From assembly GCF_963676685.1 (NCBI RefSeq), contig NC_092353.1, forward strand, positions 34,782,001 through 34,846,000: a stretch of 64,000 nucleotides of DNA. The letters run 5' to 3'. Source of the stretch: Mytilus edulis (Eukaryota). Under the pieces are notes generated by a model. That model had not been told where the DNA came from, searched no databases, and saw nothing but the letters and a program-made list of their open reading frames with translations. Positions 18,863-19,076 of this stretch are shown here, piece by piece (positions within the stretch are counted from its first letter, which is position 1; every line of letters starts with the position of its first letter). A program made the position numbers and the translations under genes.

Positions 18863-19076
18863 ATGGATGTTTCTATATTTCTTTTCACCATATTGTTAAG
18901 TGGAGTTGGTGCCATTCAAGTTGTATTAGTATCAATGGATGGATTTAGATGGGATTATCTGAATCGAGTCCCCACTCCTAACTTTGGTCGTCTTGCCAGA
19001 CATGGAACAAAAATTGAACATATAGACAATACCTTTGTTACAGAGGCATTCCCTTGTCATTATTCAATTTCTACAG
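18863..19076 (+). CDS. ENPP exon 1
   Basis: Signal peptide, DGFR motif and nucleophile motif; donor G|gtgag. Confidence 0.93.

What the first reader, a model, noticed from the sequence alone, without database searches (positions are those of the whole stretch)
19031..19076. ENPP catalytic threonine replaced by alanine: probable pseudoenzyme
Seen: the motif reads FVTEAFPCHYSISTG (GCA at 19046-19048). Established: the ENPP consensus is TKTFPNH, where the Thr before FP is the nucleophile (Ser in ENPP6) and Thr-to-Ala is the standard inactivating mutant. All six metal-ligand motifs (DGFR, EPDxxGH, SDHG, HGYD) and the GxxxN Asn remain, and the ORF and splice sites are intact. This suggests a binding-only protein or a recent null allele (ACA to GCA is one transition).
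Basis: partly seen in the sequence, partly recalled or inferred. Interest (0 to 1): 0.7.

Follow-up and report, generated by a model that had tools for sequence, protein, structure and literature searches.

The report
Rare dead allele of mussel ENPP
This mussel sequence has alanine in place of the catalytic threonine of an ENPP-family enzyme, which likely kills its activity, but the same gene keeps the threonine in the other mussels checked, so it is likely an ordinary rare broken allele and not an evolved non-enzyme.

Summary
GCA (Ala62) at 19046-19048 replaces the catalytic Thr of an intact three-exon, 403-aa ENPP4/5-like Mytilus gene. It sits where Ala sits in the engineered 'inactive (T72A)' ENPP5 of PDB 5VEO.

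It is not an evolved pseudoenzyme. All 7 orthologous database sequences that cover the site carry Thr; six are full-length and come from at least four named Mytilus species. Of 4 public runs covering the base, 3 show only ACA, including a spliced RNA contig. The fourth holds both alleles: one contig identical to the window (G) and one with A. So the G is in real reads beside a Thr allele, though that run may be the assembly's source. A close paralog in the same assembly has a premature stop.

Best reading: a recent, low-frequency, probably recessive loss-of-catalysis allele in a highly polymorphic bivalve. Thr60 and Cys65 also occur in Thr-bearing orthologs, so they are not compensations.

The scan's index shows no earlier report of this. 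Ordinary; interest low.

The parts
18863..19076 (+). Exon 1 (codons 1-71 plus first base of Gly72): hydrophobic N-terminus (predicted signal peptide), DGFR metal motif, catalytic helix
   Evidence: Pfam PF01663 E 9e-14; hydropathy peak 2.34 from residue 7
18938..18940 (+). Asp26, metal ligand of the DGFR motif
   Evidence: sequence; D in 206 of 219 aligned homologs
19040..19042 (+). Thr60, the -2 Thr; not a substitute nucleophile
   Evidence: T in 165 of 219 homologs; also present in inactive mutant 5VEO
19043..19045 (+). Glu61 in place of the usual phosphate-binding Lys; shared by all Mytilus orthologs and, independently, by a limpet group
19046..19048 (+). Ala62 (GCA) at the catalytic nucleophile position; other alleles have ACA (Thr)
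19055..19057 (+). Cys65 (FPCH for FPNH); common in molluscan homologs that keep Thr
   Evidence: C in 41 of 219 homologs; tree labels
19077..19949 (+). Intron 1 (GT..AG, 873 nt), holds a dispersed repeat
   Evidence: joint 'skips 873' in X15 RNA contig; many off-target reads at about 19320-19839
19950..20680 (+). Exon 2: Asn83 (19982-19984), Asp177 (20264-20266), His181 (20276-20278), Asp224 (20405-20407), His225 (20408-20410)
   Evidence: PF01663 E 1.9e-65; single DNA match in own genome
20681..21555 (+). Intron 2 (GT..AG, 875 nt)
   Evidence: joint 'skips 875' in X15 RNA contig
21556..21822 (+). Exon 3: His330 (21598-21600), no hydrophobic C-terminal anchor, stop TAA 21820-21822

Best explanation
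The window carries an allele of an intact mussel ENPP4/5-like gene in which one A-to-G change turns the catalytic Thr62 into Ala; it is likely a recent, rare, recessive loss-of-activity allele segregating beside normal Thr alleles. Shown: the gene structure, the substitution, its position at the nucleophile, Thr in the orthologs, and both alleles in one run. Inferred from ENPP chemistry: the Thr allele is a secreted two-zinc phosphodiesterase in which Zn2 activates Thr62 to attack phosphorus and form a covalent intermediate that water then releases. The Ala protein would still fold and bind zinc and ligand but would turn over substrate only at trace level. Inferred from population context: the allele persists by mutation and drift because a Thr allele and intact paralogs mask it.
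For: Orthologs: 6 of 6 full-length proteins (P0001, P0121-P0125) and the exon-1 ORF P0161 read T-E-T-FPCH. The window nests inside this 7-row clade (SH-aLRT 100) as sister to Thr-bearing P0124, 96.5% identical. Runs: base 19046 is A in X6 (1 contig, depth 39.5), X12 (3 contigs) and X15 RNA (1 contig); X1 has one contig with A (depth 2) and one identical to the window over 19003-19110 (depth 4.9). The depth-2 contig shares three listed variants with X15, so it is a real haplotype. Position: Ala62 aligns with the Ala of 5VEO, titled 'inactive (T72A), in complex with AMP'. The model of P0124 (pLDDT 93.3) puts residue 62 at the start of helix 62-71 and matches 5VEO at rmsd 1.4 A. Thr-to-Ala is called inactive for NPP3 T206A and ENPP1 T238A (PMC6052110, PMC6200793; passages). 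Redundancy: the 11 other exon-1 matches in the genome have Thr (8) or Ser (3). Internal control: a close paralog on C9 has a premature TAA in exon 3 where P0133 and P0134 read on. Background: mussel heterozygosity 1.73% (PMC7653742, passages); bivalves carry a high load of non-synonymous variants (PMC5804265, passages).
Against: The sample is small: 4 runs cover the site and 17 of the 24 listed runs were never laid, so the allele could be common in some population. X1 may be the assembly's source, so a second independent carrier is not shown, and its depth is low. Activity was not measured; two papers report product in crystals of Thr-to-Ala mutants, one suggesting slight activity. The window allele has 10 lineage-specific amino-acid changes against 4 in its sister P0124 (binomial p 0.18, three outgroups), five of them in exon 3 relative to the similar P0131. 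This could mean the haplotype is older or more relaxed than one fresh mutation implies. It is not significant, and three of the ten are shared with other alleles.
Confidence: 0.85

Rival explanations
1. An evolved, fixed pseudoenzyme: the gene lost catalysis and is kept as a binding-only protein.
For: Fold, six metal ligands and Asn83 intact. Autotaxin has reported non-catalytic roles (PMC4349085, abstract only). Thr-to-Ala mutants still bind nucleotides in crystals.
Against: 7 of 7 orthologous sequences and 6 of 7 contigs have Thr/ACA. The one spliced transcript seen carries Thr. Intact ligands are expected in any young null allele.
Confidence: 0.02
2. A selected polymorphism: the Ala allele makes a secreted substrate trap that binds and shields an extracellular nucleotide, and selection keeps it at intermediate frequency.
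For: One run carries both alleles. No anchor, so likely secreted. Mild, non-significant excess of amino-acid changes on this haplotype.
Against: G was seen in 1 of 4 runs although the runs were ranked by similarity to the window. No transcript of the Ala allele was seen.
Confidence: 0.05
3. Sequencing or assembly error; the animal has ACA on both chromosomes.
For: Only one contig, at depth 4.9, supports G, and its run may be the assembly's source. One transition separates the codons.
Against: That contig matches the window with 0 differences over 108 bases and is the deeper of the two in the run. A random error would have to recur in several reads at this one base.
Confidence: 0.05
4. The Ala protein is still an enzyme because Thr60, Cys65 or a zinc-bound water replaces the nucleophile.
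For: Product was seen in crystals of ENPP1 T238A and NPP3 T206A.
Against: Thr60 and Cys65 are unchanged from Thr-bearing orthologs. The -2 Thr is present in the inactive 5VEO mutant. Ala occurs in 0 of 205 well-aligned homologs and 0 of 77 metagenome loci with a readable motif, of 80 fetched.
Confidence: 0.03

Closest known systems
Vertebrate ENPP5/NPP5 (PDB 5VEM, 5VEN) and its engineered inactive mutant T72A (PDB 5VEO)
   Same: Single PDE domain, about 40% identity, rmsd 1.4 A for the model of Thr allele P0124; same metal ligands; the window has Ala at the same position as 5VEO.
   Different: Natural allele rather than engineered. Phe63 where ENPP5 has Tyr, Glu61 for Lys, Cys65 for Asn. No C-terminal membrane anchor.
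Vertebrate ENPP4 (PDB 4LQY)
   Same: PDE-only architecture; nucleotide-slot aromatics (Phe63, Tyr144) correspond to ENPP4 Phe71 and Tyr154 by alignment (residue roles from PMC8808174 passages).
   Different: The conserved Lys before the nucleophile (ENPP4 Lys69) is Glu; no anchor; one-to-one orthology to ENPP4 or ENPP5 not established.
Mytilus 'ENPP5-like / enpp4-like' orthogroup (P0001 M. coruscus, P0122 M. trossulus, P0123 M. edulis, P0121 and P0124 M. galloprovincialis, P0125)
   Same: 88.6-96.5% identity; 403 aa in four of six; T-E-x-FPCH motif; GIVG C-terminus.
   Different: Only the window has Ala62.
Segregating deleterious or null alleles in marine bivalves (genetic load)
   Same: Single-base damaging change at a conserved site, seen beside a normal allele, in a family with paralogs.
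   Different: Frequency and fitness effect of this allele not measured.

Membership tests
ENPP (nucleotide pyrophosphatase/phosphodiesterase, PF01663), PDE-only ENPP4-7 type | PF01663 domain above the curated cut-off | tested here: met
   52.2 and 222.2 bits for exons 1 and 2, cut-off 23; exon 3 gave no Pfam hit
ENPP (nucleotide pyrophosphatase/phosphodiesterase, PF01663), PDE-only ENPP4-7 type | Alkaline-phosphatase-type PDE fold without SMB or nuclease domains | tested here: met
   Model of Thr allele P0124 (96.5% identical), TM 0.88-0.90 to ENPP4/5/6/7; the window's own spliced protein was not folded
ENPP (nucleotide pyrophosphatase/phosphodiesterase, PF01663), PDE-only ENPP4-7 type | Six zinc ligands (three Asp, three His) and the oxyanion Asn | tested here: met
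   D26, D177, H181, D224, H225, H330, N83
Catalytically active ENPP (this allele) | Thr or Ser nucleophile | tested here: not met
   Ala62; met by the other alleles
Catalytically active ENPP (this allele) | Measured phosphodiesterase activity | not testable with these tools
   needs recombinant protein
Vertebrate ENPP5 proper | Tyr after the nucleophile (Tyr73) and a C-terminal membrane anchor | tested here: not met
   Phe63; C-terminal hydropathy 0.74 against 2.1-2.3 in anchored paralogs
Evolved pseudoenzyme | Loss of the catalytic residue fixed or shared among orthologs | tested here: not met
   0 of 7 orthologous sequences and 1 of 7 contigs carry Ala/G
Evolved pseudoenzyme | Expression and purifying selection of the dead form | tested here: inconclusive
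   Only a Thr transcript seen (X15); three raw RNA runs had no depth on the exons; rate test p 0.18
Segregating null allele | Coexists with a functional allele in the species | tested here: met
   Both bases in run X1; only A in X6, X12, X15
Segregating null allele | Low population frequency | tested here: inconclusive
   G in 1 of 4 runs; too few runs, and ranked by similarity to the window

The most novel reading that the evidence does not exclude
The Ala62 allele is a naturally selected, secreted 'substrate-trap' form of an already unusual ENPP (Lys-to-Glu charge reversal beside the nucleophile, anchor lost, the same pair of changes arising independently in limpets) that binds and protects an extracellular nucleotide signal instead of destroying it, and segregates as an enzyme/pseudoenzyme switch in mussel populations.
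Probability: 0.04. Interest if true: 0.6.

Novelty: new member of a known kind. Interest (0 to 1): 0.12.

Why it matters
As a rare null allele it matters little. It is one more damaging variant in a very polymorphic bivalve, and a caution that a single mussel assembly can mimic a pseudoenzyme and mislead annotation. It would matter only if the allele proved common and expressed, because I found no report of a natural nucleophile-dead ENPP. The side finding is a modest lead for ENPP substrate specificity: an anchorless ENPP with Glu at the conserved phosphate-binding Lys, evolved separately in mussels and limpets.

Tried and rejected
Pattern scan of metagenome contigs for either allele: 0 matches. 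The search for related loci in the same collection kept 80 loci of 34-42% identity and no mussel ortholog; they served only as a conservation control.

Exact look-up of four window ORFs: none in the collection. This says little about frequency.

Three raw RNA runs (X21, X22, X24; 6-18% of each read) had no depth on any exon; the tissue is unknown, so this is no evidence on expression.

Second copy or alternate haplotig in the assembly: one DNA match only for exon 2.

N/S count against the X15 haplotype: 22 non-synonymous and 13 synonymous among 35 listed coding differences, over about 952 and 257 sites, ratio about 0.46. The list is incomplete and compares two old haplotype classes, so it was not used as evidence of relaxed selection on the Ala allele. 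The rate test with P0123 as outgroup (13 vs 1, p 0.002) was rejected because P0123 lies inside the ingroup and shares exon-3 states with P0124.

G42 looked private against database proteins, but X1, X6 and X12 carry the same base. RNA editing was rejected because the G is in DNA. A single origin of Glu61 in mussels and limpets was rejected by AU test (p 0.007). No complex-prediction job was sent. The scan's earlier findings gave nothing by sequence or by words.

Full report
OBSERVATION. Bases 19031-19075 read TFVTEAFPCHYSIST and 19046-19048 is GCA. The gene has three exons on the + strand, 18863-19076, 19950-20680 and 21556-21822, giving 403 aa with no internal stop. Both introns are GT..AG, and both joints appear in RNA contigs of run X15. 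Exons 1 and 2 match Pfam PF01663 above its cut-off; exon 3 has no Pfam hit. Ligands D26, D177, H181, D224, H225, H330 and Asn83 are present. The best protein matches are Mytilus 'ENPP5-like' proteins, so this is a mussel gene.

IS RESIDUE 62 THE NUCLEOPHILE? Yes. In the alignment of the near-identical Thr allele P0124 to solved structures, residue 62 faces the Thr of ENPP5 and ENPP4 and the Ala of 5VEO, whose title is 'inactive (T72A), in complex with AMP'. The AlphaFold model of P0124 (pLDDT 93.3) starts a helix at residue 62 and superposes on 5VEO at 1.4 A. The window's own spliced protein was not folded. A review states that the nucleophile is Thr in all ENPPs except ENPP6 (Ser) and is held by Zn2 (PMC8808174, passages). 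NPP3 T206A and ENPP1 T238A are described as inactive, although product appeared in their crystals and one paper suggests slight activity at high concentration (PMC6052110, PMC6200793; passages). Of 267 fetched proteins, 219 were at least 300 aa; 205 of these have D26, P64 and H66 aligned, and they show Thr 202, Ser 3, Ala 0. Many rows are close relatives, so these are not independent. In 80 metagenome loci, 77 gave a readable motif and all had Thr.

FIXED OR POLYMORPHIC? The cluster holding the ortholog has 13 members. The six that cover exon 1 (P0001, P0121-P0125; M. coruscus, M. galloprovincialis twice, M. trossulus, M. edulis and one whose species name is cut in the listing) all read T-E-T-FPCH, as does the exon-1 ORF P0161. 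The window sits inside this clade (SH-aLRT 100, quick tree) as sister to P0124. Of 24 listed runs, 7 were laid and 4 cover the site. Base 19046 is A in X6 (1 contig), X12 (3 contigs) and X15 RNA (1 contig). X1 has a contig of depth 2 with A and a contig of depth 4.9 identical to the window across 19003-19110. So 6 of 7 contigs carry ACA, and the G is present in sequencing data beside a Thr allele. X1 is the best holder and may be the assembly's source, so it shows that the G is probably not a consensus error but does not prove a second carrier. Contigs drop rare variants, so the three A-only runs show presence of Thr, not absence of Ala.

COMPENSATION? Thr60 and Cys65 are the same in all Thr-bearing orthologs. 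Thr60 is found in 165 of 219 homologs and Cys65 in 41, and the -2 Thr is present in the inactive 5VEO. Nothing specific to the Ala allele suggests a replacement nucleophile. I had no atomic coordinates, so distances were not measured.

CONTEXT. The genome has 11 other matches to exon 1, with Thr in 8 and Ser in 3; this count is a lower bound. The two closest paralogs lie in tandem on C9 with the same intron positions. One reads intact; the other has a premature TAA in exon 3 where P0133 and P0134 read on. A second broken allele in the same family and assembly fits a background of common damaging variants. Mean heterozygosity in M. galloprovincialis is 1.73% (PMC7653742, passages), and bivalves show high non-synonymous diversity (PMC5804265, passages).

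RESULTS AGAINST MY READING. The window allele has 10 lineage-specific amino-acid changes against 4 in P0124 (p 0.18 with each of three outgroups), and its end branch is 0.028 against 0.008. Five changes fall in exon 3 relative to the similar fragment P0131. Three of the ten are shared with other alleles: G42 with X1, X6 and X12, S241 with P0130, S358 with P0131. I could not test whether the exon-3 changes are linked to Ala62, because both lays were used. An older, relaxed haplotype remains possible and would still be a null allele.

MECHANISM. Shown: structure of the gene, substitution at the nucleophile, Thr in other alleles. Inferred: the normal product is a secreted two-zinc phosphodiesterase (hydrophobic N-terminus, no hydrophobic tail), probably acting on nucleotide-type substrates since the slot aromatics Phe63 and Tyr144 are kept. 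Without the hydroxyl the Ala form cannot make the covalent intermediate, so it would fold and bind but barely turn over. It likely persists in heterozygotes by drift.

SIDE FINDING. The Lys before the nucleophile contacts substrate phosphates in ENPP1 and NPP3; K205A lowers NPP3's specificity constant for ATP about six-fold. It is Glu in all six Mytilus orthologs and in three limpet proteins, and in 0 of 40 other molluscan rows. All nine lack the hydrophobic tail that most of the 40 carry; several Lys-bearing rows also lack it. The two Glu groups do not form one clade (AU p 0.007, 24 rows, quick tree, group chosen after seeing an earlier tree). This suggests convergence on an anchorless enzyme with altered phosphate preference. 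It is untested.

LITERATURE. 'Mytilus' with 'ENPP5' gave 0 papers. 'Pseudoenzyme' with 'nucleotide pyrophosphatase' gave 1, and 'mussel' with 'ectonucleotide pyrophosphatase' and 'Mytilus' gave 6; I saw these as listings only and none names this gene in its title. For PMC4349085 I saw the abstract and outline only. No supplements were read; those of mussel resequencing papers could hold the allele's frequency. The library lacks most subscription papers, including the primary NPP5 structure paper. The scan's index had nothing by sequence or words; one note from the same genome describes an exon-end minisatellite like the one I saw in locus L008.

VERDICT. Observation confirmed; 'pseudoenzyme' not supported; 'recent null allele' supported at about 0.85. 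New member of a known kind. Interest 0.12.

Noticed in passing
window 19043-19045 and 21556-21822; P0001, P0121-P0125, P0024, P0179, P0186: Lys-to-Glu beside the nucleophile plus loss of the hydrophobic C-terminal tail occurs in the Mytilus orthogroup and, apparently independently, in limpets (0 of 40 other molluscan rows have Glu; AU p 0.007).
   Followed up: partly
L014 about 2497-2499, minus strand (G000:C9 about 20,676,498): Close ENPP paralog has a premature TAA in exon 3, which removes the C-terminal anchor region; P0133 and P0134 read through.
   Followed up: partly
L008 1595-3162 (G000:C1, locus 15,756,032-15,759,193): In another ENPP paralog the exon end with the catalytic motif and its GTAAGT donor is repeated at least 21 times as a 74-bp minisatellite, 96% matches, running off the locus; some copies encode Ser at the nucleophile.
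   Followed up: partly
window 18133-18718: 53-bp minisatellite, 11 copies, 96% matches, ending 145 bases before the start codon; effect on expression unknown.
   Followed up: no
window 21556-21822: Exon 3 has five amino-acid changes (N338, I371, D373, Y388, F396) not seen in the other exon-3 sequences of this orthogroup, while exons 1 and 2 differ from their nearest alleles by one change each.
   Followed up: partly
window 13380-17483, minus strand: A 1368-codon open frame, very acidic, with 34-aa and 10-aa repeats, a hydrophobic start and an EGF-like Cys motif at its end; further minus-strand exons at about 900-6800 look cadherin-like by eye (label recalled, not tested).
   Followed up: no
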